Below, one piece after another: positions 2,243 through 61,101 of a DNA stretch of 64,000 nt. Origin of the DNA: Eledone cirrhosa (lineage: Eukaryota). The notes below the pieces were generated by a model that did no database searches, was not told the origin of the DNA, and saw only the letters and a program-made list of their open reading frames with translations. Each line of letters starts with the position of its first letter. Position 1 is the stretch's first letter. Position numbers and translations under genes: made by a program. The stretch is taken from positions 54,064,001 to 54,128,000 of the forward strand of contig OZ024746.1 in assembly GCA_964016885.1 (NCBI GenBank), in the 5' to 3' direction.

Positions 2243-2291
<49 letters not shown>

Positions 2292-2299
<8 letters not shown>

Positions 2300-2693: not shown

Positions 2694-2696
<3 letters not shown>
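2292..2696. mobile_element. Fold-back HHR element, family C copy 1 (inverted pLTR-like, in (TA)n)
   Basis: ~156-bp inverted arms 2292-2447 and 2455-2610 plus a unique tail to ...actcacctcc; (TA)n on both sides; one HHR per arm. Confidence 0.85.
2504..2570 (+). ncRNA. Type I hammerhead ribozyme (family C); mirror copy on minus at 2332-2398
   Basis: TTTTAT-CTGATGA-[long stem II AAACACAAATATTATT gcat GATGATGTTTGTATTT]-GAAA-TGCGCA-TA-ATAAAA; stem III is the palindrome ATGCGCAT; AUA cleavage triplet. Confidence 0.8.
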
Positions 2697-2783
<87 letters not shown>

Positions 2784-2940
2784 TATGTATAGTAAGTATA
2801 TATATGTAAGTAACAGCCGTACTAAGAGTGAGAAATGAAATTTCGTTTCACTTTTTCCGTTTATATATATATATATATATATATAAATTAATGTATATAT
2901 AAATATATATATATATATATATAAATTAATGTATATATAA

Positions 2941-2997
<57 letters not shown>

Positions 2998-3262
2998 AAT
3001 TAATGTATATATATATATATATAAATTAATGTATATATATATATATATACATTTAAGTATGTATGTATACGTACATACATATATGTATACAGACGTACAG
3101 TAGTATGTATATATATATATACATACATGCAGACATATATATGTATGTACGGATTCACCGAACATTTATTATAATGCTCGGTGTGTTTGTAAACAAACAT
3201 CCAGTATTAAGCCGTAGTGTCTAGCAACCACCGTTGCTCGTTTGTTCAACACTGACAAAGGA

Positions 3263-3305
3263 ACGCTGTACTAGTTTCAAACTTATTAGCTATCGTCAGC
3301 AACGT
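3263..3305 (-). ncRNA. Type I hammerhead ribozyme (family B)
   Basis: Minus strand: ACGTTG-CTGACGA-TAGCT aata AGTTT-GAAA-CTAG-TA-CAGCGT; stem I pairs, ACTAGT palindromic stem III, GUA site. Confidence 0.8.
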
Positions 3306-3797
3306 ATACCTTCCTGCCAGATGATTGACCGTCCGAAAGCATATACTTTCCTTATGCATATTAACGGCTGAGTAGCCCAATTTGCATATCGAGTAGGTTA
3401 ATCGGCCGGGTGCACCGAAAACGATAAACGGAACAAATGAAACGAAATTTCATTTCCCACTCTTAGTACGGCTGTAACTTAAATATAAGTATGTATGTAT
3501 ACGTACATACATATATGTATGCAGACGTACATTAGTATGTATATATATATATATACATACATGCACACATATATATATGTACGTATGGATTCACCGACCA
3601 TTTATTATAATGCTCGGTGTGTTTATAGCTTATTAGCTATCGTCAGCAAAACGAATTTCGTTTCATTTTTTCCGTGTATCATTTTCGGTGTACCCTGCCG
3701 ATTAATCCACTCGATATGCAAATTGGGCTACTCAGCTGTTAATATGCATAAGGAAAGTATATGCTTTCGGACGTTCAATCATCTGGCAGGGAGGTAT

Positions 3798-3840
3798 ACG
3801 TTGCTGAAGATAGCTAATAAGCTTGAAACTAGTACAGCGT
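3798..3840 (+). ncRNA. Type I hammerhead ribozyme (family B)
   Basis: ACGTTG-CTGAAGA-TAGCT aata AGCTT-GAAA-CTAG-TA-CAGCGT. Confidence 0.8.
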
Positions 3841-4110
3841 TCCTTTGTCAGTGTTGAACAAACGAGCAACGGTGGTTGCTTGACACTACGGCTTAATACG
3901 GGATGTTTGGTTACAAACACACCGAGCATTATAATAAATGTTCGGTGAATCCATACGTACATATATATATGTGTGCATGTATGTATATATATATACATAC
4001 TACTGTACGTCTGTATACATATATGTATGTACGTATACATACATAGTTATATTTAATTAACAGCCGTACTAAGAGTGGGAAATGAAATTTCGTTTCAATT
4101 TTTCCGTTTA

Positions 4111-4131
4111 TATATATATATATATACATTA

Positions 4132-4181
<50 letters not shown>

Positions 4182-4183
4182 TA

Positions 4184-4263
<80 letters not shown>

Positions 4264-4333
4264 TAATTTATATATATATATATACATTAATTTATATATA
4301 TATACATTAATTTATATATATATATATAAATTA

Positions 4334-4397
<64 letters not shown>

Positions 4398-4513
4398 TAA
4401 TGTATATATATATATATATATATATAAATTAATGTATATATATATATATATATATATATACATTAATTTATATATATATATATATATACATTAATTTATA
4501 TATATATACTTTA

Positions 4514-4570
<57 letters not shown>

Positions 4571-4735
4571 TATGCACATTAATTTATATATATATATATA
4601 TATATATACATTAATTTTTATATACATACACATTAATTTATATATATATGTACATTAATTTATATATATACATTAAATCATATATATATATATATGCATT
4701 AATATATGTATATATATACACACACATTAATATAC
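4111..4735. repeat. Compound (TA)n array punctuated by CATTAATTT / AAATTAATG in both orientations
   Basis: The 9-mer recurs more than 15 times between TA tracts; same motif at 2885-3035. Confidence 0.85.
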
Positions 4736-6793: not shown

Positions 6794-7500
6794 CTATGAA
6801 TTAGGGAGCTGCGCAAATCCAAGTTCAGTCATACTTTGGTCCAAGCGGGTTGGTATATAACCCGTAGCTCCAATAATGATGGGTATGAAGCTAAAGGTGT
6901 ATCTTGGATACTGGATTTGTAAACTCCTCATCAATGGTCCGTAGATGTCCTCCTTCTCCTGTATTTTTCTGACAACGTTTACATCAAGTGGGCAGCTGAT
7001 CTCCACAACAGAACACGTTTTCAATGTCTGGTCCCAAAAAACAATATCAAGCCGGTTGTGCTTTAATTTGGTGGCAGTTTTTATTTTCAGGTTCCACCAG
7101 TATTCCTTAGTGCCATCTGTCTCAATATATTCTTCCTCGTTAGTCGTTAATTTTGTTTTCCGAAGTGCGTTCCAGATGGTTCTAGCTATCCCATCGTGTC
7201 TCATGGGGAGGTAAGTAGCGAGATGACATTCTTTCGCAGCTGGCAACAATGTGGCTTACATCCTCGATCTTTGTTTTACATAGCCTACATTTATTGTCAG
7301 CTGCTGGCCCTCCTCTTTTGTGCAGCAGATATTTGGTAGGGAGTTCTTGTTCCTGTATTGCATAGAGATATCCCTCAAGGTGTGATGTCATAAACTTGTC
7401 GGAACTCCATGCCAGGCTTTTTGAGTGGTTTATCCCCTCTATGGTCTGTGTTTTACGCCTCAAGTATCCATGCACAACTTTTTCTGTAAATTGGTAAATT
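6794..7500 (-). pseudogene. 3' fragment of an RLE-type non-LTR retrotransposon (R4/Dong-like): zinc finger plus restriction-like endonuclease
   Basis: Two frameshifted ORFs: CRLC..EDVSHIVASC, RHD, WWN..IKT..KHNRLDIVFWD, VVEISCP, PIIIGATG. Next to (TATG)n. Confidence 0.8.
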
Positions 7501-7726
7501 GTTTATGTATGTATGTATGTATGTATGTATGTATGTATGTATGTATGTATGTATGTATGTATGTATGTATGAATGTATGTATGTATGTATGTATGTATGC
7601 ACATATGTATGTATGTATGAAAGTATATATGAAAGTATATATGCATGTGTGTATGTATGTACGTATGTACGTATGTACGAATATATCTATGTATAAATGT
7701 AGGTATGTATGCATTTAGGTATGTAT

Positions 7727-8644: not shown

Positions 8645-9367
8645 ATGGAAAAGATTTCTTTTGCTGAAGCCGTCCAAAAGACATTTCCAATGCTAGGGAA
8701 ATGTTAAGCGATGCAAAACAGTACGTAACTTTTGGTGAGAGTGGTCCTTTCAGCATCACTTCTCCTTAACAGTTACGCAGAGAAACTGTTCTAAAAACAG
8801 TAATTTTTAGGACGGTCTCAAATGTGTCGAAAAAACCAGTTCAGTTATCCCAAAACGATATTGAACTGGTTCTGAAGAATTCCATGAAGGATATTGCCTT
8901 CATCCAAAAAGGGAAAATTTTTGGAACCATTTCGGTGTTGTTGAAACACCAATTGACAGCACACAAATATTCTGTATTGGAAATTCTGGTCCAAAATACC
9001 CCAATGTGTGCCTCTGGATGGAATTTCACACATAAACATTTCTGTTGAGGGTAGGCGGCCTTCATGTTACCACTGTTTAAACAGTGGTCACCTGAAGGCT
9101 TACTGTCCTCAGTTAAATAAAAAAAAGAGGCACTACTGCCAACACCCAATACAACAACACAACCACCACCACCACCACAACAACAACAACACGCAAACAC
9201 AACCAAAACAAGAACAACAAACCAACCTGCAAGCACAGTCCCACCCAACCCCACTCCACCTAAAACCACTGCAAAAACACCCACAAACACAACAGCTCCC
9301 CAAAACATACCCCTTTCAAATAACACAGACACCACAACGGATGAGTCCCCACATCATCACCAAGTGA
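8645..9367 (+). pseudogene. Tx1 ORF1 (gag-like), disrupted
   Basis: MEKISFAEAV start motif; CYHCLNSGHLKAYC zinc knuckle at ~9064-9105; stops and frameshifts. Confidence 0.7.
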
Positions 9368-10001
9368 TGATGAGGGAGAGCCTCTCCGTTCGAAAAGAAG
9401 GAAGAAAAGACACGACAAGAATAAAAAAACAACAAACATCACTACAAACATACAACCACCAACACAAACAACACGAACATTACAAACAAAAACCCCCCGT
9501 CCCGAAAACAAAACCACGACATCACTCCAAACACAAACACCTACAACAAAACGAAAGCTCCCACAAGAACAACAAACAAAAACCACCGCAACACAACAAG
9601 AACATTACACATACATAAACAGTAAAAACAAAACTTTAATGGAGGTCATCTCCAACGACCCTTCGGTGAAAACCGAAGGGAAAACTTTTTCGAACTGTGT
9701 AGACAAACCTAATTTAAAGATGATTAGGGTCCCTACGGACACCTATAAGTCTTTAAAGGAAAACTTTCCTAAGGACGTGGGTAATCCTTGTGTTAAGCCC
9801 ATTAACCGCGTCCTTTTAAAAAGTTCCCCACCCTCACCCCAGACACCCCCACCCCACCAAACATCTCCGTCCCCACCCCGCCGGAAACCACCACCCACCC
9901 AGACAACTCCTCTATCACCCCCATGGAAACCGTGCGGCCTGTTCCCCGGGAGACGAAGAGGTGAGTGTTTTCTTCTCCTCTTTTAACTTTTCAGAACCAA
10001 C

Positions 10002-13000
10002 ATGGCCAATATAAGAGTTGGGTGTGTGAATGTACGCGGCCTGGGGATGCCCTGGAAACAGGGCAAACACTTAAACAACCTCAGGTCGCACAATATGGAT
10101 GTAGTAGCCATTTGCGTGTCCAGGATCCACAGAGAGTGACAGCTGGCCCCCATCTTCGATGACTTTGAGATCTACGCATATCTCTGTCAGCCGGGGGGTG
10201 GGGGCGGGGTTGCCGTTTTGCTGCGGAAACACCTGGGCTTCGTAACACAGACGGTACATCTGGACCCGGAGGGTCGACTGGTGGTCCTAGACGTTGACAG
10301 TAGTGAAGGTGGAGCCTTCAGGCTGGTGGTCGCATATGCCCCATCCGGGACACTGCGGCCAGACTTCTTCAAACGTCTAGAGACTTTTCTGGGAACGTCC
10401 CGCTCCTTGCTTTTATTGGGGGACTGGAATGGATTCCTAGATGTACATTGGGACTATGTGGGAGCATGTCCCGATAAAGGGGGGTGTAACATCCTCAAAC
10501 AGTTAATCGGCCGATTTGACCTGGCCGATAGATATCGACTAGATTTTCCGACTGTGCCACTGTGGACGTGGACTAATCACAGCGGAGCATCTAGATCGTA
10601 CCTAGATAGGGTTCTAGTTAGAAATAAGGATATGGACATGTTAAGCTGTCCACATGTTCATGGTTTCCTATTCAGATCACAAACTAGTGACCTGCATAGT
10701 CAACCTTGATAGAACCCATAGACAAGGACCCGGCTACTGGAAGCTGAACTTGTCGTTACCAGCATGCAAAGCCTACAGTATACGGATTAGCACTTTAGTT
10801 AAACAGCACTTGACAGGGGCCATTGTCAACAACAGATGGTGGTACTCTCTCAAGAGGGCAGTTAGATTAGACTCGTTAGTTTTTAGTAAAGAATTAGCGT
10901 TAGATAGAAATAGAACCGAGAAAGAACTGGTAGATAAAGTAGAAGAGGCAATTAGAAGTGGAAACGTAGCCAGCGTGCTAGCAACGAGAACGGCCTTGGA
11001 CCAGTTCTTCGACGCAAAGCATGAGGGCTGCGTTGTCAGAAGCAAAATACGGGCTCTGAGAAATGAGGGAGCCAAAACTGTTAGCTGGGCGCGAGTGACG
11101 GAGGCAAAAAGTGGCAACAAGTCCACGATTCGGTCTTTGAGGGACCAAAACGGACGCGTGATACATGAGCCGAAGCAGATGTGTGCGGCCTTTCGGCGGC
11201 ACTTTGCTCAGCTGTTCTGGTAGGGCGGCGCGCCGGGAGGGGCTATGGATTTCGGTCCATACCTTGACGGCCTACCGCGACTCTCGGACAGCGAGGCAAC
11301 GTTCTGCGAAAGGCCGATTTCAGCCGCTGAGATAGGAGACGCGTTGAGCCAATGCGGCAAACGCAAATCTCCAGGTCTCGACGGTCTACCCTACTAATTT
11401 TACGTAGCAATGCCGGACTTATTCTCCGGTCTCCTGGAAGCGGTCTACTGCAACTGGCAACAGAACGGGAGAATTCCCAGTTCTGTGACCGGGGGCGTAG
11501 TCACACTAGTCAGGAAGGACGAGAATAAGGGGGATGACATAGGCAACTTCCGGCCCATAACTCTGCAAAATAGAGTTACAGATTTTCGCCAAGGTGTTGG
11601 CAAAGAGGCTGGCGCTTGTCGTCGAGAACCTGGTGAGAGAAGCGCAGACATGCGCAATCCCGACCAGGTCCATACACGACAAACTCCACCTCATGCGATA
11701 CATCATAGAGAGGGTAGGATGTAAACCCGGCTTCGGTGGGGCCCTGATCAACTTGGATCAGTCTAAGGCTTTCGATAGGGTTGACCATCGTTATCTGGAT
11801 GCGGTGCTCGAGGCGGCAGGCTTCGGACCCGTGTTCAGGGGCTGGATTGCTGCAATGCATAATAGCAACATCTGCTCAAGGGGTAAGGTGAACGGCTACC
11901 TCTCGGAGCCGTTCCGTATCACGCGATCCATTCGACAGGGATGCCCTCTCTCCTCTCTTCTGTACGTATTGACTCTCGAGCCACTACTGCGGAAGTTGGA
12001 GCTATTGCAGGGCATCCCTCTGGAACCGGGACTGCGGAAAGCGGCGTCGGCCTACGCCGACGACGTGACAGTAATGGTGTCGAGCGCCTCGCAAATCGAG
12101 GAGGTCGGCACCTTACTGAAGGAATACGAAAGGTTCACAGGAGCGAAGCTGAACCGGGACAAGTCCATCGGTTTACAACTCGGAACGTGGAGACGCAGAC
12201 CGATGCCTTCTGATGGCGTCGTCGGACGCTGGACGGAAGGACCAGTAAAGCTGTCGGGGTCTGGTTTGGTCGGACCTCCAGGTGGAGAAGAACTGGAACG
12301 AGGTGTCGGCCAAGGTGTTTGCACTCACCCAGAAGTGGGCCGAGTGCAAACTATCATTGAAAGGTCGAGCGGAGGTCGAGAACACTTTTATAGCGTCCGC
12401 CATCTACTACCGCTTGACCGTCGTGCCTTGTCCAGCCAAAACGCTCGCCAAATGGAGCGCGCGCTCTTCCAATTCTTTTGAAAGAGGCGGGCTCCTTTGG
12501 TGAGAAGATCCATCTGCTGCCAACGCCCTTCCAACGGAGGGCTGGGGATGCCGTAGCTGACGATGCGCAAACACGCGCTCAGGCTGTGGCATCTCTACGT
12601 ATTCCTCACCGGACAACCGGTGTGGGCCCCGTTCGTGAGGCGAGCCTTCCCACGACTCGTCTCGCTGACCGAGCTGCAGTCCTGGGTCAAGCAAAGAGCG
12701 AGGAAAATGGGCGACTGGCACATCGAATGTGCTCAGGCGCTCACAGCCCTCTGGCAGGCGGACCCGGCGATCAGTGGGGACTCTACTTCGTCATTCTATA
12801 GAGGGTTGATCCGCAGCAAGTGCCACGACATGCTCGGTGAAACTCTGGGCGTAGAGGAAGACGAACAGGCCAGTCTATTCGGTAGGACCTTCCGCCCGGG
12901 ACCGATGGACAACTTCCAAAAGTCCCTGGCCTGGCAGTGCTACCGAGGAGCTCTACCAGTTCGAGACAAGCTCTACAGACATGGGCGCCCGGACAGGGAC

Positions 13001-13430
13001 CCTGCAAAAAAGATCTGTCCGAGGTGCGTACGAGACGAAGAAACCGTCGCGCACGCATTCATACACTGCCCGGGCGTCACCGACCTGTGGGGCTATGTGG
13101 AACGACTATTGTCGCGGGTGGGACCAATGCAGTTGACCACCGAATCCATTGTCATGATCAAAACGCCACCCTCCTTCAAAAACGAAGGAGAGGCAGTTTT
13201 CCTTTGTTTGATAGCTATGGCGAAAGAGGTATGGTGGACAAGGTTTGAAAGGGCTGAGGTCAGACACCTTTCTCTCCGGCCAACAACTGGTTCTTTTTTT
13301 CAAATACCACTTTGGAAGAAGAATCAGGATGGAGAGAGAGGTGCTGTACCCCAGCAAGTTTTATGAAAGGTGGGTGAAAGTGGCGAGAATGGCCCGAGTG
13401 AATGGGCCTTCTCTCTATATAAGCCTGTAG
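10002..13430 (+). pseudogene. Tx1 ORF2: APE endonuclease, reverse transcriptase and C-terminal zinc finger, with several stops and frameshifts
   Basis: MANIRVGCVNVRGL, GGVAVL, YAP, LGDWN, YLDRV, SDH (APE); KSPGLDG, FRPITL, DQSKAFDRVDH, RQGCPLS, YADD (RT); CPRC..ETVAHAFIHC. Confidence 0.92.
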
Positions 13431-22788: not shown

Positions 22789-22809
22789 CATATAAATATA
22801 TATAATATG

Positions 22810-23208
22810 TAAGATCAAAAGATGGTTAAATGAGTTCCATGTATTTTATTATGCGCATTTCAAAAACAAATATCATAATGCAATAACATTTGTGTTTTCA
22901 TCAGATAAAATAGGAGGACATGATATGAAGGTTAAAAAACACTTGTGGATAGTGCAGTTTTAAATCAATAACTGCACTATCCACAAGTGTTTTTTAACCT
23001 TCATATCATGTCCTCCTATTTTATCTGATGAAAACACAAATGTTATTGCATGATGATATTTGTTTTTGAAATGCGCATAATAAAATACATGGAACTCATT
23101 TAACCATCTTTTGATCTTATATATTATGTATACTCCAGTCCTACAAACTGTAGAGTGCTTCTTATCCGATATCTGCATTGCTTTATTGTACTACAATAAA
23201 ACTCACCT

Positions 23209-23210
<2 letters not shown>
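22810..23210. mobile_element. Fold-back HHR element family C copy 2 (HHRs 22844-22910 minus, 23019-23085 plus)
   Basis: Same arms and tail as 2292-2696; in (TA)n. Confidence 0.85.
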
Positions 23211-23286
<76 letters not shown>

Positions 23287-27825: not shown

Positions 27826-28395
27826 TTAAAGTGTACGTGGTTGAGAATTCCACAGACACGAGTACGCTTAACGTTACCCAAAACGAGATTCGGCGTGTCA
27901 CCTCACCACATAACAAAGCTGGCCCTTTAAATCACAGGTACATTCCATCCAACGAGATTCCAAACACTTCCTGACTACCCAAATTTCTATCACAAGGCAT
28001 GGGTCGATGCGAAATTGCCCGAGATGTCACGCCGTAGGATCGAACTCGGTAGCTTATGATTGCGAAACGTGCTTTTTAATCATTCGGCCATACAAATTTT
28101 CATTCTAAAATATATGGATCATTAATATCACACGATGATTATATAAGAGGAAACGATTATGCAAAAAAATTAATGTTAATTATTAGAAAATATTTCTTTC
28201 TATTTCTGGAAGATATTCTAGCGGCAGCTGTTCCCATATTTTCGTTGTTGCTGATTCTAAAGAGTATATAGTGGTGTTGTTGTTGTTGGTGGTGGTGGAG
28301 ATTTATATATATATATATCTAGATAATGTAAGATATAGTATTATATAATATATAATTATATATCTATATATGTATAAATATATAAGTATTCATAT

Positions 28396-31300
28396 ATAAA
28401 AACAAATAACGAAACGAAATTAAATTTCGTTTCGTTTGTAACTCACTTTTGTATGACTGACGCTTAAACAATTAAGTTAAAGATGTACATCCATATATGT
28501 ATACTGAAATACTAGTATGTATATGAATACACACACGTATACATATGTAGATGTACCAAGTTTTTTTTCACTGGTCACTTTACTGTGAGTGGCCAGCTAT
28601 TCTGTATGTAAACACACAGACAAACCGGTTTTTAGAGTCATACTGGTTTTTGAGGAAACACCTTTCCTCTATTCTCCAGAAAGCCAGACAAGGAATATTG
28701 AACTAGTTTCGTTGTTGTTACAACTCATCAGCAATATTTACCTATCTTCCGGCCTCTCTAGAGAATCGTAAAAGCACATATCGTTATATGCTTTTTCTAT
28801 GAAAATTAGTAGTGGGCAGACTAATCCGCACAGAGTGTGAGTAAGTACCGGTTCAACGGAGACGATAAAAACAAATAACGAAACGAAATTAAATTTCGTT
28901 TCGTTTGTAACTCACTTTTGTATGACTGACGCTTAAACAATTAAGTTAAAGATGTACATCCATATATGTATACTGAAATACTAGTATGTATATGAATACA
29001 CACACGTATACATATGTAGATGTACCAAGTTTTTTTCACTGGTCACTTTACTGTGAGTGGCCAGCTATTCTGTATGTAAACACACAGACAAACCGGTTTT
29101 TAGAGTCATACTGGTTTTTGAGGAAACACCTTTCCTCTATTCTCCAGAAAGCCAGACAAGGAATATTGAACTAGTTTCGTTGTTGTTACAACTCATCAGC
29201 AATATTTACCTATCTTCCGGCCTCTCTAGAGAATCGTAAAAGCACATATCGTTATATGCTTTTTCTATGAAAATTAGTAGTGGGCAGACTAATCCGCACA
29301 GAGTGTGAGTAAGTACCGGTTCAACGGAGACGATAAAAACAAATAACGAAACGAAATTAAATTTCGTTTCGTTTGTAACTCACTTTTGTATGACTGACGC
29401 TTAAACAATTAAGTTAAAGATGTACATCCATATATGTATACTGAAATACTAGTATGTATATGAATACACACACGTATACATATGTAGATGTACCAAGTTT
29501 TTTTCACTGGTCACTTTACTGTGAGTGGCCAGCTATTCTGTATGTAAACACACAGACAAACCGGTTTTTAGAGTCATACTGGTTTTTGAGGAAACACCTT
29601 TCCTCTATTCTCCAGAAAGCCAGACAAGGAATATTGAACTAGTTTCGTTGTTGTTACAACTCATCAGCAATATTTACCTATCTTCCGGCCTCTCTAGAGA
29701 ATCGTAAAAGCACATATCGTTATATGCTTTTTCTATGAAAATTAGTAGTGGGCAGACTAATCCGCACAGAGTGTGAGTAAGTACCGGTTCAACGGAGACG
29801 ATAAAAACAAATAACGAAACGAAATTAAATTTCGTTTCGTTTGTAACTCACTTTTGTATGACTGACGCTTAAACAATTAAGTTAAAGATGTACATCCATA
29901 TATGTATACTGAAATACTAGTATGTATATGAATACACACACGTATACATATGTAGATGTACCAAGTTTTTTTCACTGGTCACTTTACTGTGAGTGGCCAG
30001 CTATTCTGTATGTAAACACACAGACAAACCGGTTTTTAGAGTCATACTGGTTTTTGAGGAAACACCTTTCCTCTATTCTCCAGAAAGCCAGACAAGGAAT
30101 ATTGAACTAGTTTCGTTGTTGTTACAACTCATCAGCAATATTTACCTATCTTCCGGCCTCTCTAGAGAATCGTAAAAGCACATATCGTTATATGCTTTTT
30201 CTATGAAAATTAGTAGTGGGCAGACTAATCCGCACAGAGTGTGAGTAAGTACCGGTTCAACGGAGACGATAAAAACAAATAACGAAACGAAATTAAATTT
30301 CGTTTCGTTTGTAACTCACTTTTGTATGACTGACGCTTAAACAATTAAGTTAAAGATGTACATCCATATATGTATACTGAAATACTAGTATGTATATGAA
30401 TACACACACGTATACATATGTAGATGTACCAAGTTTTTTTCACTGGTCACTTTACTGTGAGTGGCCAGCTATTCTGTATGTAAACACACAGACAAACCGG
30501 TTTTTAGAGTCATACTGGTTTTTGAGGAAACACCTTTCCTCTATTCTCCAGAAAGCCAGACAAGGAATATTGAACTAGTTTCGTTGTTGTTACAACTCAT
30601 CAGCAATATTTACCTATCTTCCGGCCTCTCTAGAGAATCGTAAAAGCACATATCGTTATATGCTTTTTCTATGAAAATTAGTAGTGGGCAGACTAATCCG
30701 CACAGAGTGTGAGTAAGTACCGGTTCAACGGAGACGATAAAAACAAATAACGAAACGAAATTAAATTTCGTTTCGTTTGTAACTCACTTTTGTATGACTG
30801 ACGCTTAAACAATTAAGTTAAAGATGTACATCCATATATGTATACTGAAATACTAGTATGTATATGAATACACACACGTATACATATGTAGATGTACCAA
30901 GTTTTTTTCACTGGTCACTTTACTGTGAGTGGCCAGCTATTCTGTATGTAAACACACAGACAAACCGGTTTTTAGAGTCATACTGGTTTTTGAGGAAACA
31001 CCTTTCCTCTATTCTCCAGAAAGCCAGACAAGGAATATTGAACTAGTTTCGTTGTTGTTACAACTCATCAGCAATATTTACCTATCTTCCGGCCTCTCTA
31101 GAGAATCGTAAAAGCACATATCGTTATATGCTTTTTCTATGAAAATTAGTAGTGGGCAGACTAATCCGCACAGAGTGTGAGTAAGTACCGGTTCAACGGA
31201 GACGATAAAAACAAATAACGAAACGAAATTAAATTTCGTTTCGTTTGTAACTCACTTTTGTATGACTGACGCTTAAACAATTAAGTTAAAGATGTACATC

Positions 31301-32516
31301 CATATATGTATACTGAAATACTAGTATGTATATGAATACACACACGTATACATATGTAGATGTACCAAGTTTTTTTCACTGGTCACTTTACTGTGAGTGG
31401 CCAGCTATTCTGTATGTAAACACACAGACAAACCGGTTTTTAGAGTCATACTGGTTTTTGAGGAAACACCTTTCCTCTATTCTCCAGAAAGCCAGACAAG
31501 GAATATTGAACTAGTTTCGTTGTTGTTACAACTCATCAGCAATATTTACCTATCTTCCGGCCTCTCTAGAGAATCGTAAAAGCACATATCGTTATATGCT
31601 TTTTCTATGAAAATTAGTAGTGGGCAGACTAATCCGCACAGAGTGTGAGTAAGTACCGGTTCAACGGAGACGATAAAAACAAATAACGAAACGAAATTAA
31701 ATTTCGTTTCGTTTGTAACTCACTTTTGTATGACTGACGCTTAAACAATTAAGTTAAAGATGTACATCCATATATGTATACTGAAATACTAGTATGTATA
31801 TGAATACACACACGTATACATATGTAGATGTACCAAGTTTTTTTTCACTGGTCACTTTACTGTGAGTGGCCAGCTATTCTGTATGTAAACACACAGACAA
31901 ACCGGTTTTTAGAGTCATACTGGTTTTTGAGGAAACACCTTTCCTCTATTCTCCAGAAAGCCAGACAAGGAATATTGAACTAGTTTCGTTGTTGTTACAA
32001 CTCATCAGCAATATTTACCTATCTTCCGGCCTCTCTAGAGAATCGTAAAAGCACATATCGTTATATGCTTTTTCTATGAAAATTAGTAGTGGGCAGACTA
32101 ATCCGCACAGAGTGTGAGTAAGTACCGGTTCAACGGAGACGATAAAAACAAATAACGAAACGAAATTAAATTTCGTTTCGTTTGTAACTCACTTTTGTAT
32201 GACTGACGCTTAAACAATTAAGTTAAAGATGTACATCCATATATGTATACTGAAATACTAGTATGTATATGAATACACACACGTATACATATGTAGATGT
32301 ACCAAGTTTTTTTCACTGGTCACTTTACTGTGAGTGGCCAGCTATTCTGTATGTAAACACACAGACAAACCGGTTTTTAGAGTCATACTGGTTTTTGAGG
32401 AAACACCTTTCCTCTATTCTCCAGAAAGCCAGACAAGGAATATTGAACTAGTTTCGTTGTTGTTACAACTCATCAGCAATATTTACCTATCTTCCGGCCT
32501 CTCTAGAGAATCGTAA
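28396..32516 (-). repeat. 468-bp x ~8.8 tandem array, one type I hammerhead per unit (retrozyme-like family A)
   Basis: ORF track repeats every 468 bp. The only differences I noticed are one extra T in a poly-T run in units 1 and 8. HHRs start at 28694, 29162, 29630, 30098, 30566, 31034, 31502, 31971 and 32439 (45 nt each). Confidence 0.95.
28694..28738 (-). ncRNA. Type I hammerhead ribozyme (family A, first of 9 identical copies)
   Basis: Minus strand: AATATTG-CTGATGA-GTTGT aaca ACAAC-GAAA-CTAG-TT-CAATATT; 7-bp stem I, 5-bp stem II, ACTAGT palindromic stem III, GUU triplet; predicted cut between 28701 and 28700. Confidence 0.88.
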
Positions 32517-32679
32517 CTTATTTGTTTATTCATATATATATATACATATATATATATTTGTGTGTGTGTGTAGAGAGAGAGAAGGGGGTTAAACATATCG
32601 CATTTCTTGTAATTGGCTAAATCCAGCTACTGATAATACGATCTTATCCTTTCAAACACACATACACATACACACACAC

Positions 32680-35292: not shown

Positions 35293-35335
35293 AGACACAC
35301 ACACATTCATATATATATATATATATATATATATA

Positions 35336-35755
35336 GGAGGTGAGTTTTATTGTAGTACAATAAAACAATGCAGATATCGGATAAGTAGCACTCTACAGTT
35401 TGTAGAACTGGAGTATAAATAATAATATATAAGATCAAAAGATGGTTAAAAGAGTTCCATGTATTTTATTATGCGCATTTCACAAACAAATATCATCATG
35501 CAATAACATTTGCGTTTTCGTCAGATAAAATAGGGAGACATGATATGAAGGTTAAAACACACTTGTGAATAGTGGAGTTTTAAATGATATGTTGATTTAA
35601 AACTGCACTATTCACAAGTGTGTTTTAACCTTCATATCATGTCTCCCTATTTTATCTGACGAAAACGCAAATGTTATTGCATGATGATATTTGTTTTTGA
35701 AATGCGCATAATAAAATACATGGAACTCTTTTAACCATCTTTTGATCTTATATAT
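35336..35755. mobile_element. Fold-back HHR element family C copy 3, reversed (HHRs 35464-35530 minus, 35650-35716 plus; CTGACGA core)
   Basis: Tail first, then inverted arms; in (TA)n. Confidence 0.85.
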
Positions 35756-38388: not shown

Positions 38389-38596
38389 CACATATTTATA
38401 TATATACGTTAAGAATTTCCGAAGGTAAAGCAAAGGAAAAAAGATTGCTCTATGTATAATACAGAGCTATTTAATTAGAAAGTAAACAACACAATATAAC
38501 TACTCCATTACCAAAGGTTTCACTGCATCTTAATACAGCGCACCTATGACAGACTGACGGCTAAGCTAAGTAAATATATATAAGTAAATATATATT

Positions 38597-38905
38597 AGAA
38601 ATGTAGTATATAGCATAAGATGTACCGAAGGACAATGTAGAGATAAGAATATAGGGTACATAGGTGAGACAGCTCGTATTATAGGAGAACGGATAAATGA
38701 ACACTGGCGAGAGCTTCAAGATAGAAAAGAATCATCTGTACTCCACCAACATGCTAAAATAGAACATAAGGGTAAATTAGAGAACATAGAAATGAAAATA
38801 GAATCTACACACAGAAAATACGCAATGTTTAGACAAATCACAGAGGCAATAAACATAAATAAACTCCAACCAAATTAAATAGAAAATATGAATGGAATAG
38901 CAAAA
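38597..38905 (+). pseudogene. Penelope-like element GIY-YIG endonuclease domain (5'-truncated element; absent from the ORF track)
   Basis: Frame from 38600: NVVYSIRCTEGQCRDKNIGYIGETARIIGERINEHWRELQDRKESSVLHQHAKIEHKGKLENIEMKIESTHRKYAMFRQITEAININKLQP, then a frameshift to LNRKYEW. Shows VVY..C..C..YIGET..R..EH..E..P.LN. Confidence 0.88.
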
Positions 38906-39122
38906 TCATAACTTACAATTAAGGACAAAATGAAAACACACAACCACATAGAACAAACAACCAACCAGTAAAATGTAAACAAACAAATAAATAAACAAAT
39001 ATAAACACACACAGACACCCGGATGTAACACATGCGCAAACTAAGCACACAAAACACACAAAAAACAAGATGGCGTAGGACAGAACAAAGGAGAGGCACA
39101 AAAACAAAGAAAAGAATCCCCA

Positions 39123-39165
39123 GTCACTGAAGAGGTCACAGAATGTGTGACGAAAAAACTTTGAC
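39123..39165 (+). ncRNA. Type I hammerhead in the PLE 3' pLTR (stem III decayed)
   Basis: GTCA-CTGAAGA-G-GTCAC agaatgt GTGAC-GAAA-aaac-TT-TGAC, ~220 nt downstream of the GIY-YIG domain. Confidence 0.7.
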
Positions 39166-39375
39166 AATATATGAACAACCGTCCCGTTGTGGAACCAACC
39201 AACCAATCGGAAATTTATAAATTCTTAAATTTATAAATTTAACTTATAATAAATTGGAGTGAAAGCAACTGGTGCGTGTGTTTCTTATTGGCAACATGAT
39301 CCTCCCAAAGCATAACAATATCGGTTTCAACACACGATTTCAGATAAACAATCTTGCTAAACAAATTCAGAAACG

Positions 39376-39419
<44 letters not shown>

Positions 39420-39458
39420 ATATTAAATAAATGGAAACTATATTTATAAAACCATTTT

Positions 39459-39520
39459 TATTCTATTATATATATTTCAAGGGTACCAACAATTTTGGTA
39501 CGCTATCATCAGATAAAATA
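39459..39520 (-). ncRNA. Type I hammerhead (related truncated copy 62781-62831 plus)
   Basis: TATTTTAT-CTGATGA-tagcGTACCAA aattg TTGGTAC cctt-GAAA-TATATA-TA-ATAGAATA; ATATATAT palindromic stem III. Confidence 0.7.
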
Positions 39521-39645
39521 CGAAGTGTGTTTTATAAATGTTGACATAACCAAGGATAATATACCTTAACGGTTCAAGTTATCCCTGGATAGTCTTATAA
39601 ACATTTATATTTGTTGAATTACCAACAAATTGAATATCCCTTCTG

Positions 39646-39717
<72 letters not shown>

Positions 39718-43005: not shown

Positions 43006-43600
43006 AAAACGATAAACGGAAAAAATGAAACGAAATTTCATTTCCCACTCTTAGTACGGCTGTTACTTAAATATAAGTATGTACACGTACATACATATAT
43101 GTATACAGACGTACAGTAGTATGTATATATATATATATAAATACATGCACACATATATATATGTACGTATGGATTCACCGAACATTTATTATAATGCTCG
43201 GTGTGTTTGTAAACAAACATCCCGTATCAAGCCGTAGTGTCTAGCAACCATCGTTGCACTGACATCGTTGCACTGACAAATGAACTGACAAATGAACGTT
43301 GTAGTAGTTTCAAGCTTATTAGCTATCGTCAGCAACGTATACCTTCCTGCCAGTTTGTTGAACATCTGAAAGTATATACTTTCCTTATGCATATTAACGG
43401 CTGAGTAGCCCAATTTGCATATCGAGTGGGTTAATCGGCCGGGTGCACCGAAAACGATAAACGGAAAAAATAAAACGAAATTTCATTTCCCACTCTTAGT
43501 ACGGCTGTTACTTAAATATAAGTATGTACACGTACATACATATATGTATACAGACGTACAGTAGTATGTATATATATATACATACATGCACACATATATA
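43006..43600 (-). repeat. Family B repeat, ~1.3 units, HHR at 43296-43338 (stem III mutated to ACTACT)
   Basis: ACGTTG-CTGACGA-TAGCTaataAGCTT-GAAA-CTAC-TA-CAACGT. Confidence 0.85.
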
Positions 43601-43604
43601 TAGT

Positions 43605-43770
43605 CTAACAAAGTTCTTTCGTTGCACATCTGCCACATCGTCAGTGGTGGTATTATGTGTCCTCCTGTTGTATTGTATGCCTACGCCATCTTTCAGTGAG
43701 TGTGTTCTGTTATTAATTCTGGCAATATTATTACACAAATATGACCCTATCCAAGTATAACAAAATTTAT
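43605..43770 (-). mobile_element. PLE 3' remnant with decayed HHR, related to 39060-39165
   Basis: Shared aagatggcgtagg, followed by ca-CTGACGA-tgtggcagatgtgcaac-GAAA-gaac-TT-tg. Confidence 0.55.
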
Positions 43771-43792
43771 AAATATATATATATATATATAT

Positions 43793-43836
43793 GTCTTTGA
43801 TGTGCAATTTAGTGGGCGGAATCTGCAGAAGCCCTT

Positions 43837-43896
<60 letters not shown>

Positions 43897-43938
43897 GGGC
43901 TTCTGCAGATTCCGCCCACTAAATTGCACATCAAAGAC
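43793..43938. repeat. Perfect 46-bp inverted repeat around a (CA)n(TA)n spacer
   Basis: 43793-43838 is the exact reverse complement of 43893-43938. Confidence 0.9.
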
Positions 43939-44489
43939 ACTGGTCAACCCTAAGCTACATTGGAGGACAATTGTCCATGAAAAACTGCAGCGAAATTGAA
44001 ACCTGAAGCACTATATATATATATATATGTGTGTGCGTGTGTGTGAGTGTGTGCGTGCGTGTGTGTATATATAAAGAGAGAGAGAATGAGAGAGAGAGGA
44101 GAAAATGAGAGGGGTAATAGAAATATAATGAGTGAGAGAGAGATAGAACTGTTGATTTTGTATCATTAACCTGGAAGTAATTGGTATCAATGCCAGGATG
44201 TCATTACAAGAATATTTATTACCAAATTCTACGATATTCTTCACTGATGGCTGCAACCTGCCGTCCACATTCTGCTTAAAGTACGGCAATAAACTTGCAT
44301 GAATAACTTTTATGGTCTTTCATTTGCATTCTTTCTAATTAATTTGTAATAAAAACTAACACAGTCCTGGACAATAGCTAAACGCGCGCCCGTACACACA
44401 CGCACATACAAATACATACACACACATGCACGCGTACACATACACACACACACATGCACGCACGCACACACACACGCACACACACATTT

Positions 44490-50165: not shown

Positions 50166-50367
50166 ATGTTGTTAAATATACTCCCAGAGTATACTCATAG
50201 TTATTCGCTTCGATAAAGGGTGTCTCAAAAATTGGAAAGACCAATGGAAACATTATTTCCTCGGCCGGATTTGACGAAAGTCGATCGACTGTTGATATAT
50301 ATATGGGTTAATCACTCCCTTGATTAAATCTTAACCATTTAACATCTCAGGGTATGTCATGTATCAT

Positions 50368-50426
50368 TATATTTTGTCTGATGAGGACCTACTGTTGTAC
50401 ATCCGAAATATGTATAATAAAATGTA
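50368..50426 (+). ncRNA. Type I hammerhead in a solo pLTR-like remnant
   Basis: TATATTTTGT-CTGATGA-GGA cctactgttgtaca TCC-GAAA-TATGTA-TA-ATAAAATGTA; 10-bp stem I including GU pairs. Confidence 0.75.
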
Positions 50427-50896
50427 ATTGATCAAAAGAACATCTATTTTATTAATATTTATATTTTAATATTAATAATTCCGGAAAATTATTTTATTCG
50501 TAGAGTGCTTCCAATCTACTGTAAAACTCATTCTTTGACATAATCATTGAATATCGTTTAACACTTTAATATATATATATATATATATATATTTACATGG
50601 AGAGATATTAAAGAAACAAAGAGGTGATACATGCAGATAGACATAGATGCATACCTACCTATCTACCTACATATCTATCTATCCACATATCTAGCTATCA
50701 GCCTACTTACCTAGCTACATACACACATACATAGGTTTCATTACACAAGGAAGGTATATTCACAAATCAACAACATAGACACATATTAAAATAATATTTA
50801 TGGATTTTGACTTATCTTTTAACAGAGACTGAGGTAAGAGATAAGATTTAATCTCTCGCTTCTCCCTTTCTCACTCTCTGTATATATATATATATA

Positions 50897-51928: not shown

Positions 51929-52296
51929 CAGAGTTAGTCAAAATTATGTTAACATTTTCTCTATCAAACATTTCCAAATCGTGGGATAGGTCGCAGTGGA
52001 CCATCGGCATGGCCTGCCCACTGCTCTGACCTGACACCCTGTGTCGTCTGGTTGTGGGGCATGGTAAAGGAGCGCGTGTATAGCAAAAAAGTTACAGACG
52101 TCGATGAACTCAAGGACAGAATACAAGGTGTCGTATCAAGTATTCACCGCGAAATGTGTGTCAAGGCACTAAATTGTACTGTTGATCGCTGGTTTTTGTG
52201 TATTGATCATGGTGGTGATCAGGTTAAGACTGTTCAGTAAATTCTGAATAAATGATTTCTCCCATACTAGTGTTAACATAATGTTGACTCACCATG
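51929..52296 (+). mobile_element. Internally deleted Tc1/mariner-superfamily transposon
   Basis: ~26-bp TIRs (CAGAGTTAGTCAAAATTATGTTAACA and TGTTAACATAATGTTGACTCACCATG) flanked by TA; FPNRGIGRSGPSAWPAHCSDLTPCVVWLWGMVKERVY resembles the WPPRSPDLTPxDxxLWG motif. Confidence 0.88.
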
Positions 52297-52336
52297 TATA
52301 TATATATATATATATTTGTAAAACTGTTATATATTG

Positions 52337-52401
52337 TATTTTGTCTGAAGAAGGCATACCATAATTTAATTTGCTATCCCTGAAATATTTATAATGAAAT
52401 A
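52337..52401 (+). ncRNA. Type I hammerhead in a solo pLTR-like remnant
   Basis: TATTTTGT-CTGAAGA-AGG...CCT-GAAA-TATTTA-TA-ATGAAATA. Confidence 0.65.
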
Positions 52402-52434
52402 AATATGGTTTTATAAATATAGTTTATTAATATC

Positions 52435-52513
<79 letters not shown>

Positions 52514-55752: not shown

Positions 55753-55881
55753 TGTGTGTGTCCCAAAATATATATAATCACTTCAAACGCATTCTAATAA
55801 ATATGTGTATACGAAATTTCAATACATATATGTATACAGCTATGCATGAAGCTAATTCCTACTTCTATTATATATATATAT

Positions 55882-56200
55882 ATATTATTCAAAATGTTAA
55901 TAAATGAAAAATATTCTCATAATCAAAATTTATATTTTATTATACATATTTTAAAGGTACAATGGTGTTTAAATACGTTTTCATCAGACAAAATACATGT
56001 CTGATGAAAACGTATTTAAACACCATTGTACCTTTGAAATATGTATAATAAAATATAAATTTTGATTATGAGAATATTTTTCATTTATTAACATTTTGAA
56101 TAATATTAAATACTCCAAGAAAATCCCTTGTCGAGGGCTTCTAATCTATTGTCAAATTGTATTTGTTGATTAATCAACGAACCATATTAATCTTTGGTTA
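55882..56200. mobile_element. Fold-back HHR element (arms 55882-55990 and 55998-56106, plus tail)
   Basis: Plus arm: TGT-CTGATGA-AAA..TTT-GAAA-TATGTA-TA-ATA; the minus arm has GAAA changed to AAAA; flanked by (TA)n. Confidence 0.75.
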
Positions 56201-57825: not shown

Positions 57826-58244
57826 ATATGTATGCATATGCTTAAAATGTATGTATATATGTATCCATATGCTTAAAAACAACACGTATATATTTATACG
57901 TACATAAATATACATACATATGTGTGTTTTTTTAAATGGAATGAGGTACTGCGTATTATGATAATGCCATCATCTAAAGATTACCGGTTAAATACAGTGA
58001 TGAATGAAAAATACAAATTTAACAATTTCGTCAAATCTCTGCGTGTTACCATATAGCTGTATGGTAATGTCTCTAATACACAAGATTACTAAAAACATAA
58101 TGGCGCTGAATAGAACAGTGTATGCCTATCTACGGCTTGCTACTTGCTACATACAAGCTGAAACCGGTAGGCGTTGCGGTCGGGTTTAAACCTGTCTCTC
58201 TCTCTCCTTATATATATATATATATATATAAGTTGTAATATAAT

Positions 58245-58433
58245 TGTTTCTACGTTAGGCACAAGGCCAGCAAATTACCCAGTGCATTACTGGTACTTTA
58301 TTTTATCGACCCCGTAAGGATGAAAGGCAAAGTCAACCTCGGCGGGATTTGAACTCAGATCGTAAAGGGATGTAACTATGCTGGAAAGCATGGCGTCCGA
58401 CCCTCTACCGATACTGCCAATCCACACCCTATG
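58245..58433 (-). mobile_element. SINE family 1 inserted into the start of the family B array, with TSD
   Basis: AGTTGTAATATAAT duplicated at 58231-58244 and 58434-58447. Confidence 0.85.
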
Positions 58434-58999
58434 AGTTGTAATATAATGAAACGAAATTTCATTTCTCACTCTTAGTACGGCACTTACTTAAATGTAAGTA
58501 TGTATGTATACGTACATACATATATGTATACAGACGTACAGTAGCATGCATATATATATATATATATACATACAGGTACACATATATATATGTACGTATC
58601 AGTTTAGTGAACGTTTATTATAACGCTCGCTTTGTTCGTTTGTAAACAAGCGAACAGCCTGATTTATGCCATACGGTGTTAAGGCAACCACGTCACCTTT
58701 TTGTTCAACACTGACACAGGAACGATGTACTAGTTTCAAGCTTGTTAGCTATCATCAGCACCGTATACCCTTCTGCCAGATAGTTGAACGTTCGAAAGTA
58801 TATACTTTCCTTATGAAAATTAACGGCTGAGCAGCCTAATTTGCATATCGAGTGAGTTCAGTCGGCCAGGCGTACCGAAAACGATAAGTTGTAATATAAT
58901 GAAACGAAATTTCATTTCTCACTCTTACTACGGCACTTACTTAAATGTAAGTATGTATGTATACGTACATACTTATATGTATACAGACGTACAGTAGCA

Positions 59000-59081
<82 letters not shown>

Positions 59082-59461
59082 CAGGTACACATATATATAT
59101 GTACGTATCAGTTTAGCGAACGTTTATTATAACGCTCGCTTTGCCGTTTGTAAACAAGCGAACAGCCTGATTTATGCCATACGGTGTTAAGGCAACCACG
59201 TCATCTTTTTGTTCAACACTGACACAGGAACGATGTACTAGTTTCAAGCTTGTTAGCTATCATCAGCACCGTATACCCTTAACGGCTGAGCAGCCTAATT
59301 TGCATATCGAATGAGTTCAGTCGGCCAGGCGTACCGAAAACGATAAGTTGTAATATAATGAAACGAAATTTCATTTCTCACTTTTAGTACGGCACTTACT
59401 TAAATGTAAGTATGTATGTATACGTACATACATATATGTATACAGACGTACAGTAGCATGC

Positions 59462-59498
<37 letters not shown>

Positions 59499-59951
59499 CA
59501 GGTACACATATATCTATGTACGTATCAGTTTAGCGAACGTTTATTATAACGCTCGCTTTGTCCGTTTGTAAACAAGCGAACAGCCTGATTTATGTCATAC
59601 GGTGTTAAGGCAACCACGTCACCTTTTTGTTCAACACTGACACAGGAACGATGTACTAGTTTCAAGCTTGTTAGCTATCCTCAGCACCGTATACCCTTCT
59701 GCCAGATAGTTGAACGTTCGAAAGTATATACTTTCCTTATGAAAATTAACGGCTGAGCAGCCTAATTTGCATATCGAATGAGTTCAGTCGGCCAGGCGTA
59801 CCGAAAACGATAAGTTGTAATATAATGAAACGAAATTTCATTTCTCACTCTTAGTACGGCACTTATTTAAATGTAAGTATGTATGTATACGTACATTCAT
59901 ATATGTATACAGACGTACAGTAGCATGCATATATATATATATATATATATA

Positions 59952-60226
59952 TAATATAAGATCAAAAGATGGTTAAAGGAGTTCAATATATTTTATTATG
60001 CGCATTTCAAAAACAAACATCATCAAACAATAATATTTGTGTTTTCATCAGATAAAACATGATATGAAGGCTAAAAAAACACTTGTTGATAGTGCAGTTT
60101 TAAATCAACATATCATAACCATCTTTTGATCTTATATTATGCATACTCCAGTCCCACAAACTGTAGAGTGCTTCTTATCCGATATCTGCATTGCTTTATT
60201 GTACTACAATAAAACTCACCTCCTAC
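59952..60226. mobile_element. Family C element copy 4 (right arm internally deleted; HHR 59991-60057 minus) nested in the (TA)n of array unit 4
   Basis: Same arm and tail sequence as 2292-2696. Confidence 0.8.
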
Positions 60227-60305
<79 letters not shown>

Positions 60306-60819
60306 CATGTACACATATATATATGTACGTATCAGTTTAGCGAACGTTTATTATAACGCTCGCTTTGTCCGTTTGTAAACAAGCGAACAGCCTGATTTAT
60401 GCTATACGGGGTTAAGGCAACCACGTCACCTATATATATATATATATATATAATATAAAGCTGACGGCCGTATGTATGTAACAAACTTTCTGCCAAACGG
60501 CTGAACCAAATTTGCACCATAAATGTAACTTTTTCCAAGTGAGTGCATTTTTGTCTACTGAATTTTGTTAAAAGATTAAAGACATTATTTAAATATTCAC
60601 TTCTTTAAAATTTCAAATGTCAAAATTTCCAGTTATACGACATTCCTCACTTTTTCTTATGACGTCGCACAACATTCCCCTCTTTTTCTTAGCGTCTTTT
60701 TAGATATATACATAGCTATAACGTAGCGCCCTTATAATATGTCTCTGTATGTCTGGCTGTCTGCATTAGATAACGTTTTTCGAAATATTTACTTTTGCGT
60801 TCACAGATTGATTTTTTTT

Positions 60820-61030: not shown

Positions 61031-61101
<71 letters not shown>

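What the first reader, a model, noticed from the sequence alone, without database searches (positions are those of the whole stretch)
28390..28440. Independent arrays share one terminus abutting (TA)n, far from the cleavage site
Seen: array A starts at ...catat|ATAAAAAC (internal context gacg|ATAAAAAC). Array B starts at (TA)n|agttgtaat (internal acgata|agttgtaat, 58231). The reversed B units end at ccgttta|(TA)n at 4110 and 2862 (internal ccgttta|tcgtttt). The 43006 copy begins a few bases earlier in non-TA sequence. The opposite ends (32516, 43600, 60430) vary. Inference: on the HHR strand this is a fixed 3' end ~290-300 nt downstream of the cut site, next to a conserved hairpin, with TAT microhomology to a (TA)n target. 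That fits target-primed reverse transcription starting at a defined internal site and running through several units (rolling over a circle or a multimer) before 5' truncation.
Basis: partly seen in the sequence, partly recalled or inferred. Interest (0 to 1): 0.75.

Follow-up and report, generated by a model that had tools for sequence, protein, structure and literature searches.

The report
Hammerhead retrozyme arrays with fixed end
These tandem repeats carry a self-cleaving-ribozyme motif in each unit and end at the same point of the unit, usually next to TA-rich DNA, likely because a Penelope-type reverse transcriptase starts copying their RNA at one internal site, a mechanism already shown for a Penelope-like element.

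Summary
Arrays A (8.8 x 468 bp) and B are homologous, non-coding, hammerhead-bearing repeats (non-LTR retrozymes). Four separate loci end, on the ribozyme strand, at the same CG|ATA point: three exactly, one 6-7 nt further. This is 277-311 nt past the predicted cut; the other ends scatter. The 2862 and 4110 ends belong to one rearranged locus. New here: array A has a 12-bp target-site duplication and a 10-nt inverted filler. A public run gives CG|ATA plus (TA)n as its best-supported loose end, with a second (TA)n end 69 nt inside. The B58 units diverge star-like. The terminus lies in a predicted three-way junction closed by sequence beyond it. These are the known footprints of Penelope-like elements (PLEs): internal RT start downstream of the hammerhead, AT-rich targets, variable duplications, 5' inversions and an optional tail. 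A PLE remnant lies in the window but shares no detectable sequence with A or B. Verdict: a new member of a known kind, likely a non-autonomous PLE passenger. It adds junction-level evidence on how retrozyme arrays integrate. Circle versus linear multimer, and the partner enzyme, are unresolved.

The parts
28396..32516 (-). Array A: 8.8 head-to-tail units of 468 bp, hammerhead on the minus strand; fixed end at 28396, variable end at 32516 (unit position 375)
   Evidence: units identical except for a one-base insertion at the same position in 2 of 9
28387..28398 (+). Left copy of a 12-bp target-site duplication; its last ATA is shared with the element terminus
   Evidence: found on + only at 28387 and 32527 (once on - at 38333); null 44 of 20,000 draws
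32527..32538 (+). Right copy of the 12-bp target-site duplication
32517..32526 (+). 10-nt filler resembling the inverted first bases of the unit (short 5' inversion)
   Evidence: sequence read directly, origin inferred
28678..28749 (-). Type I hammerhead of the first A unit (predicted cut after 28701, GUU triplet, palindromic 2-bp stem III); present in 9 of 9 units
   Evidence: HH9 model, E 1.5e-7, 37.7 bits, below the gathering score of 52
28835..28915 (-). Predicted three-way junction around an internal CG|ATA point; the closing helix pairs sequence on both sides of the point
   Evidence: pair probability 0.76-0.89 in A; helix in 5 of 6 junctions
58228..60431 (-). Array B58: 3.6 units between (TA)n tracts, starting at the same ATA; later SINE-like insert (58246-58433), a deletion in unit 2 and a family C insert (about 59952-60228)
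43006..43602 (-). B43: 1.3 units of 445 bp, starting 6-7 nt before the ATA point; no TA flank, no duplication found, stem III mismatch
3646..4111 (+). B3 reversed arm: one unit plus about 26 nt, ending at ATA|(TA)n at 4111
3050..3645 (-). B3 forward arm, joined 5'-to-5' to the reversed arm; its outer end is near unit position 60
2807..2864 (+). Isolated first 57 nt of a B unit, ending at ATA|(TA)n; same locus as B3 (local inversion or detached tail)
38588..39240 (+). 5'-truncated PLE remnant: C-terminal GIY-YIG endonuclease plus a 3' UTR with a minimal hammerhead (predicted cut after 39161); shows the candidate partner class, no sequence match to A or B

Best explanation
Arrays A and B are non-coding tandem repeats with a type I hammerhead motif in each unit that end at one fixed point of the unit, and they are likely inserted by the reverse transcriptase-endonuclease of a Penelope-like element. 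Shown: a homologous unit family, a conserved hammerhead fold, a common end 277-311 nt past the predicted cut, scattered other ends, TA-rich flanks, a 12-bp duplication around A and a head-to-head inverted arrangement at B3. Inferred: the array is transcribed on the hammerhead strand. A PLE protein binds the structured region around CG|ATA and nicks TA-rich DNA. It primes cDNA on the nick, with at most 3 nt of ATA pairing, at an internal position of the RNA (less often about 60-70 nt further in, as with the PLE tail). It then copies through several units of a circle or an uncleaved multimer. Synthesis stops at a variable point, sometimes with a fold-back, and a staggered second nick leaves the duplication. 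The hammerhead does not define the inserted ends.
For: Common end at 4 loci from three subfamilies that are 70-94% alike. 12-bp duplication plus inverted filler at A. Run X1 (1,085 contigs laid): of 7 loose-end rows shown out of 46, the best supported is position 29333 with (TA)n (5 contigs) and the next is 29402 with (TA)n (2 contigs); the rest have 1 contig each. Hammerhead: 8 of 21 pairs change on both sides, 0 of 500 shuffles as high; a further stem II double change appears among run variants at 29180/29191. The closing helix straddles the terminus in 5 of 6 junctions, with an A-U to G-C change between B58 and B43. B58: 13 of 13 four-way variable columns are singletons. Family C repeats the pattern: two fixed ends about 85-90 nt apart, both at (TA)n, in 4 of 4 copies. 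A PLE remnant with the same polarity lies in the window. Literature: PMC11167929, PMC8557442, PMC7229834, bioRxiv 10.64898/2026.07.22.740005.
Against: No autonomous PLE sharing the A/B unit was found; the one remnant tested scores like shuffled sequence against A and B. B43 has no TA flank, no duplication and a shifted end. Only 1 of 4 loci shows a readable duplication; B58's flanks are pure (TA)n. Only 7 of 46 loose-end rows were visible, contigs collapse copies, and only one of four runs was informative. Most of the hammerhead covariation is A against B, effectively two lineages. The junction helix is a folding prediction, absent in 1 of 6 junctions; RNAalifold on the automatic alignment did not recover it (that alignment misplaces A). 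The cut-to-end distance is about three times that of the Anolis element. Transcription and cleavage are untested.
Confidence: 0.78

Rival explanations
1. A short partial tandem (1-2 units) was inserted by PLE-type target priming and the array grew later by unequal crossover or slippage. The ends are as in the main model, but no long multi-unit reverse transcription is needed. This overlaps with the main model for the terminus and differs only on copy number.
For: Internal expansion preserves both ends and the duplication. A's units are essentially identical, which fits either route. The 2026 preprint proposes local amplification from a PLE terminal sequence. B43 is only 1.3 units.
Against: B58 has no variant shared 2:2 among 13 four-way variable columns, as expected if all units arose at once. 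A fast expansion right after insertion would look the same.
Confidence: 0.25
2. A LINE-type RT primes at the true 3' end of a linear transcript that ends at this site, and the (TA)n is an added tail rather than the target.
For: LINE fragments and SINE-like repeats are common in the window. A has a U5 run at the terminus on the RNA strand.
Against: B58 has no U-run immediately before the terminus (one search lists runs at unit positions 400 and 462). In A the flank is duplicated on both sides, so it is target. B43 has no TA tail. The predicted helix needs sequence beyond the end. Head-to-head inversions and a second end match PLE descriptions (PMC8557442).
Confidence: 0.08
3. A Helitron-like rolling-circle DNA element makes head-to-tail arrays with a fixed end near a hairpin, and the hammerhead is a passenger.
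For: Fixed end 10-15 nt from a hairpin, AT targets, tandem copies. An ORF at 61397-61705 looks Helitron-like from recall (no Pfam support).
Against: 12-bp duplication; no TC...CTRR termini in the sequence; variable second end; covarying ribozyme. The Helitron features are recalled, not from a call.
Confidence: 0.05
4. An ordinary satellite whose fragments end where microhomology to (TA)n allowed recombination or deletion.
For: The window is full of (TA)n (270 run ends) and the units are TA-rich.
Against: Each unit has 15-33 ATA sites, and B has a long internal TA tract, yet the fixed ends fall at one site. The same site is the top loose end in run X1.
Confidence: 0.03

Closest known systems
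Metazoan non-LTR retrozymes (Cervera & de la Pena 2020, PMC7229834; Li et al. 2026, bioRxiv 10.64898/2026.07.22.740005)
   Same: Low-GC (36-37%) non-coding tandem units, each with a type I hammerhead and a short palindromic stem III; strongly self-paired predicted circles (z -6 to -11, 25 shuffles each); co-occurrence with PLE sequence; the U-U at the base of stem II in B matches the axolotl HHR_Amex2 description.
   Different: Units of 445-468 bp are at the upper end of the 2020 range. The parts of these papers that I read do not map array termini or a priming site. Expression, cleavage and circularisation are untested here.
Poseidon PLE of Anolis carolinensis, PAc (Frangieh et al. 2024, PMC11167929)
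   Same: RT starts at internal RNA sites downstream of the hammerhead cut; AT-rich DNA is nicked; two start sites define an optional tail; genomic ends map to the start sites and not to the cut.
   Different: PAc is autonomous. Its start is about 85-92 nt past the cut, in an AC-rich stem-loop, and the tail described is 30-40 bp. Here it is 277-311 nt, with a tentative 60-70 nt tail. The paper finds no homology between primer and template; here up to 3 nt (ATA) match.
Neptune/Naiad PLEs and non-autonomous Chlamys elements such as MRC1 (Craig et al. 2021, PMC8557442)
   Same: Microsatellite targets ((TA)n for Naiads), 5' truncation, inverted 5' copies, variable duplications, multicopy head-to-tail non-autonomous insertions.
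   Different: Naiads and most Chlamys lack canonical hammerheads. The non-autonomous Chlamys elements resemble the 3' end of a known autonomous partner; none is identified for A or B.

Membership tests
non-LTR retrozyme | Tandem units of a few hundred bp, low GC | tested here: met
   445-468 bp, GC 0.36-0.37
non-LTR retrozyme | Type I hammerhead in each unit | tested here: met
   9 of 9 A units and 5 B units in a motif scan, 0 hits in 20 shuffled windows; covariation. Below the Rfam gathering score. B43 has a stem III mismatch and was missed by the scan.
non-LTR retrozyme | No coding capacity | tested here: met
   Longest stop-to-stop stretch on the RNA strand: 57 aa (A), 97 aa (B43). No Pfam hit for the B-derived ORFs among the 120 scanned; A ORFs between 28900 and 32500 were left out of that scan.
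non-LTR retrozyme | Target-site duplication longer than 4 bp when present | tested here: met
   12 bp at A; none at B43; unreadable at B58
non-LTR retrozyme | Self-cleavage of the transcript | not testable with these tools
   Needs in vitro transcription. The 2026 preprint found cleavage in only 1 of 9 Xenopus elements.
non-LTR retrozyme | Accumulation as circular RNA | not testable with these tools
   No run on record as RNA was available to lay; a contig that closes on itself arises from tandem DNA too
autonomous PLE | ORF with RT and GIY-YIG endonuclease | tested here: not met
   None in A or B; only a separate remnant at 38588-38900
non-autonomous PLE derivative | Sequence shared with the pLTR/3' end of an autonomous PLE | tested here: inconclusive
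   The single remnant available does not match; no genome was held
non-autonomous PLE derivative | Fixed 3' end downstream of the hammerhead, variable 5' end | tested here: met
non-autonomous PLE derivative | Inverted 5'-truncated copies | tested here: met
   B3 head-to-head arms; 10-nt inverted filler at A; one fold-back contig 2 nt from the cut
non-autonomous PLE derivative | Optional tail (two 3' ends) | tested here: inconclusive
   Second (TA)n end at 29402 in 2 contigs; the B3 forward arm ends near unit position 60, but a local inversion explains that too
non-autonomous PLE derivative | AT-rich or (TA)n target | tested here: met
   3 of 4 loci; run X1 loose ends
Helitron/HINE | No target-site duplication; TC...CTRR termini (recalled) | tested here: not met
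   12-bp duplication; termini read directly

The most novel reading that the evidence does not exclude
The three-way junction around CG|ATA is a conserved origin of reverse transcription on an animal retrozyme circle. A Neptune-type PLE enzyme starts there at one nucleotide, primed on nicked (TA)n DNA, and rolls round the circle up to about nine times in one event. This would be the first mapped cis-signal and priming site for rolling-circle retrotransposition of a ribozyme-made circRNA in animals.
Probability: 0.35. Interest if true: 0.65.

Novelty: new member of a known kind. Interest (0 to 1): 0.42.

Why it matters
How non-LTR retrozymes get back into the genome is stated as unresolved in the papers read (PMC7229834 discussion; 2026 preprint discussion). 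These arrays carry readable insertion footprints that match PLE chemistry and point to one nucleotide and one RNA structure as the likely start. That makes the PLE-helper hypothesis directly testable with the published in vitro PLE assay. The parts themselves (retrozymes, internal initiation, (TA)n targeting) are known, so surprise for a specialist is moderate.

Tried and rejected
Rfam at gathering thresholds: 0 matches in the window; the hammerhead appears only by E-value. No whole genome is held, so the genome-wide end map and the empty-site check could not be run. Exact-pattern scans for A or B found 0 matches in metagenome contigs, viral contigs and prokaryote genomes. Sequencing-run search: no RNA holder listed, which is not evidence on expression. 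Twenty rows from 17 studies held part of A. Of the 4 runs laid, X22 gave 0 reads, and X4 and X6 gave 1 and 7 low-depth contigs. I therefore draw no conclusion on spread across organisms; low-level carry-over of a high-copy repeat would explain it. Their self-closing contigs are not evidence of circular RNA. RNAalifold on the automatic alignment did not give the terminus-straddling helix. The word-indexed search for long relatives of the endonuclease remnant found none; the full HMMER search found 346. The remnant's 3' UTR does not match A, B, C or D, and A/B do not match C/D. A Pol III terminator at the end is not consistent across subfamilies. Distances from the solo D-type hammerheads to the next (TA)n were not counted as support: 14% of random positions have a tract within 55 nt and 30% within 155 nt. 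Earlier findings of the scan: three look-ups, nothing returned.

Full report
Observation. Array A spans 28396-32516, 8.8 units of 468 bp. The units are identical except for one extra base at the same position in units 1 and 8. Family B occurs at 58228-60431 (B58), 43006-43602 (B43) and 2807-4111 (B3). A and B are homologous: about 70% of aligned columns, score 169 against at most -23 in 50 shuffles. B58 is 85% like B43 and B3, which are 94% alike. A, B58 and the reversed B3 arm begin exactly at the ATA of CG|ATA; B43 begins 6-7 nt earlier in non-TA sequence. The 2864 and 4111 ends share a flank motif with 18 of its 20 window copies in 2885-4652. The 2864 piece covers unit positions 1-57 and the neighbouring forward arm starts near position 60, so I count one locus. 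Four uniform ends fall within 7 nt in 47 of 2,000,000 draws; restricting ends to ATA sites gives about 1e-3. The other ends lie at unit positions 375, 146, about 282 and about 26.

Ribozyme. Rfam finds nothing at gathering score but matches the HH9 model on the minus strand of A at E 1.5e-7. A motif scan gave 23 type I hammerheads in the window: 9 in A, 5 in B and 9 in other families, against 0 in each of 20 shuffles. On six aligned units, 94% of cells pair and 8 of 21 pairs change on both sides, with 0 of 500 shuffles as high. Most of this signal is A against B, and the tool warns that related sequences can beat the shuffles. The predicted cut lies 277-311 nt before the fixed end. No array in the window ends at the cut. 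Cleavage is untested.

Insertion footprints. A 12-mer that includes the terminal ATA lies on both sides of array A (28387, 32527). A matching non-alternating 12-mer arose in 44 of 20,000 draws of TA-tract pairs. Between the array's right end and the second copy are 10 nt resembling the inverted start of the unit. B58 lies between (TA)n tracts, where a duplication cannot be read; B43 shows none. B3 consists of two arms joined 5'-to-5'. With later inserts removed, the four B58 units differ only by singletons (13 of 13 four-way variable columns). That fits a common origin at one time, though rapid expansion after insertion would look the same.

Independent data. One A unit was laid on 4 of the 24 listed runs. 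X22 gave 0 reads, X4 1 contig, X6 7 and X1 1,085. Of 46 loose-end places, 7 were shown. The best supported is 29333, the CG|ATA point, with (TA)n before it (5 contigs). The next is 29402, 69 nt inside, also with (TA)n (2 contigs); the other five have one contig each. One of those folds back 2 nt from the predicted cut. All X1 contigs laid over 29294, 29295 and 29299 differ from the window there, so they do not simply repeat this array. Variants at 29180 and 29191 keep a stem II pair. Contigs collapse copies, so these counts are not frequencies.

Structure at the end. On the RNA strand the terminus lies 10-15 nt after a hairpin, inside a predicted three-way junction. Its closing helix pairs with sequence about 20-35 nt beyond the terminus in 5 of 6 internal junctions, with an A-U/G-C change between B58 and B43. 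The consensus fold on an automatic alignment did not recover this helix. If real, the signal exists only on RNA that runs past the end, i.e. a circle or a multimer, which argues for internal initiation.

Context. Family C (4 of 4 copies) is a palindrome with hammerheads and two fixed ends about 85-90 nt apart, both at (TA)n. Of 120 ORFs scanned, out of 189 that passed my filter, one matched GIY-YIG weakly (38588-38875, E 7.6e-4, below cut-off). It has 346 relatives at E up to 0.001. Of 11 scanned, 3 show both RT and GIY-YIG hits with the endonuclease C-terminal. Three of the 4 printed, including the two closest, carry a Cys-rich linker like the one described for Neptune/Nematis (PMC8557442). 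Its 3' UTR holds a minimal hammerhead, the only hit outside array A in a relaxed scan (0 in 20 shuffles). It shares no detectable sequence with A or B. So the host has had the right class of enzyme, but the partner is not identified. The repeat landscape looks octopus-like to me from recall; no call tested this.

Mechanism. Inferred steps: transcription on the hammerhead strand; PLE protein binding at the junction; a nick in TA-rich DNA; priming at CG|ATA with at most 3 nt of pairing; synthesis through several units; a variable stop, sometimes with inversion; a staggered second nick. I put this at 0.78. Later expansion from a short insert (0.25) shares the same terminus mechanism. LINE 3'-end priming, Helitron rolling and recombination are minor rivals.

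Comparison with print. PMC11167929 (abstract, main text, part of the methods; supplement 2 gave only panel labels, supplements 1 and 3 not opened) shows internal RT starts downstream of the hammerhead, AT-rich nicking and a tail between two starts. PMC8557442 (passages) describes (TA)n targets, variable duplications, inverted 5' copies and head-to-tail non-autonomous elements. PMC7229834 (passages and discussion) defines non-LTR retrozymes and proposes PLEs as helpers. PMC4209133 (part 1 of 4) describes minimal hammerheads in pLTRs. PMC6962438 (two passages) only counts Rfam hammerhead hits in a squid. Eight searches listed no paper that, by title and abstract start, maps retrozyme array termini or describes this family; subscription journals and Repbase were not searched.

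Verdict. A real feature and a new member of a known kind: it works like a PLE passenger, meets the testable retrozyme criteria, and is not an autonomous PLE. Interest 0.42; the bold reading, a mapped RT origin on a retrozyme circle, has probability 0.35 and interest 0.65.

Noticed in passing
window 2290-2700, 22797-23217, 35329-35753, 59946-60228: Family C: a palindromic non-coding element with type I hammerheads in its arms and two fixed ends at (TA)n about 85-90 nt apart. It looks like a MITE but has PLE layout. One copy sits inside the internal TA tract of a B58 unit and has lost the hammerhead of one arm.
   Followed up: partly
window 39410-39660 (-), 50300-50570, 52250-52450, 55880-56200, 62707-62831: Further hammerhead-bearing or related fragments (family D), mostly beside (TA)n; 55880-56106 is a near-perfect palindrome.
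   Followed up: partly
window 38588-39240 (+): 5'-truncated PLE remnant: C-terminal GIY-YIG with a frameshift near its end, minimal hammerhead in the 3' UTR, preceded by a 14-bp tandem duplication.
   Followed up: yes
window 58246-58433: SINE-like repeat inserted 18 nt inside the B58 terminus with a 14-bp duplication; 13 copies in the window at 80-95% identity.
   Followed up: partly
window 29167 (run X1): One contig folds back on itself 2 nt from the predicted hammerhead cut, as if cDNA reached a cleaved 5' end and self-primed. Single contig.
   Followed up: no
window 29169 (runs X1, X4): A minority variant changes the cleavage triplet from GUU to GUC; most A copies laid keep GUU.
   Followed up: no
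window 8800-13366 (+) and 63028-63543 (+): Frameshifted LINE with endonuclease, RT and zf-RVT domains, plus a related 3' fragment.
   Followed up: no
window 6794-7502 (-): Fragment of a non-LTR element with zf-RVT and a probable restriction-like endonuclease (the latter from recall).
   Followed up: no
window 61326-61900 (+): ORF fragments that look like a Helitron Rep/helicase piece from recall; Pfam gave only a weak unrelated hit.
   Followed up: no
window 43756-43940 and 60780-61200: Short inverted repeats centred on (TA)n tracts, suggesting fold-back rearrangements or assembly artefacts at TA microsatellites; relevant to reading the B3 locus.
   Followed up: no
one search run list: Array A words occur in 20 rows from 17 studies under many organism labels; the three non-X1 runs laid had low depth or none. 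Carry-over is the simple reading; horizontal spread is untested.
   Followed up: partly
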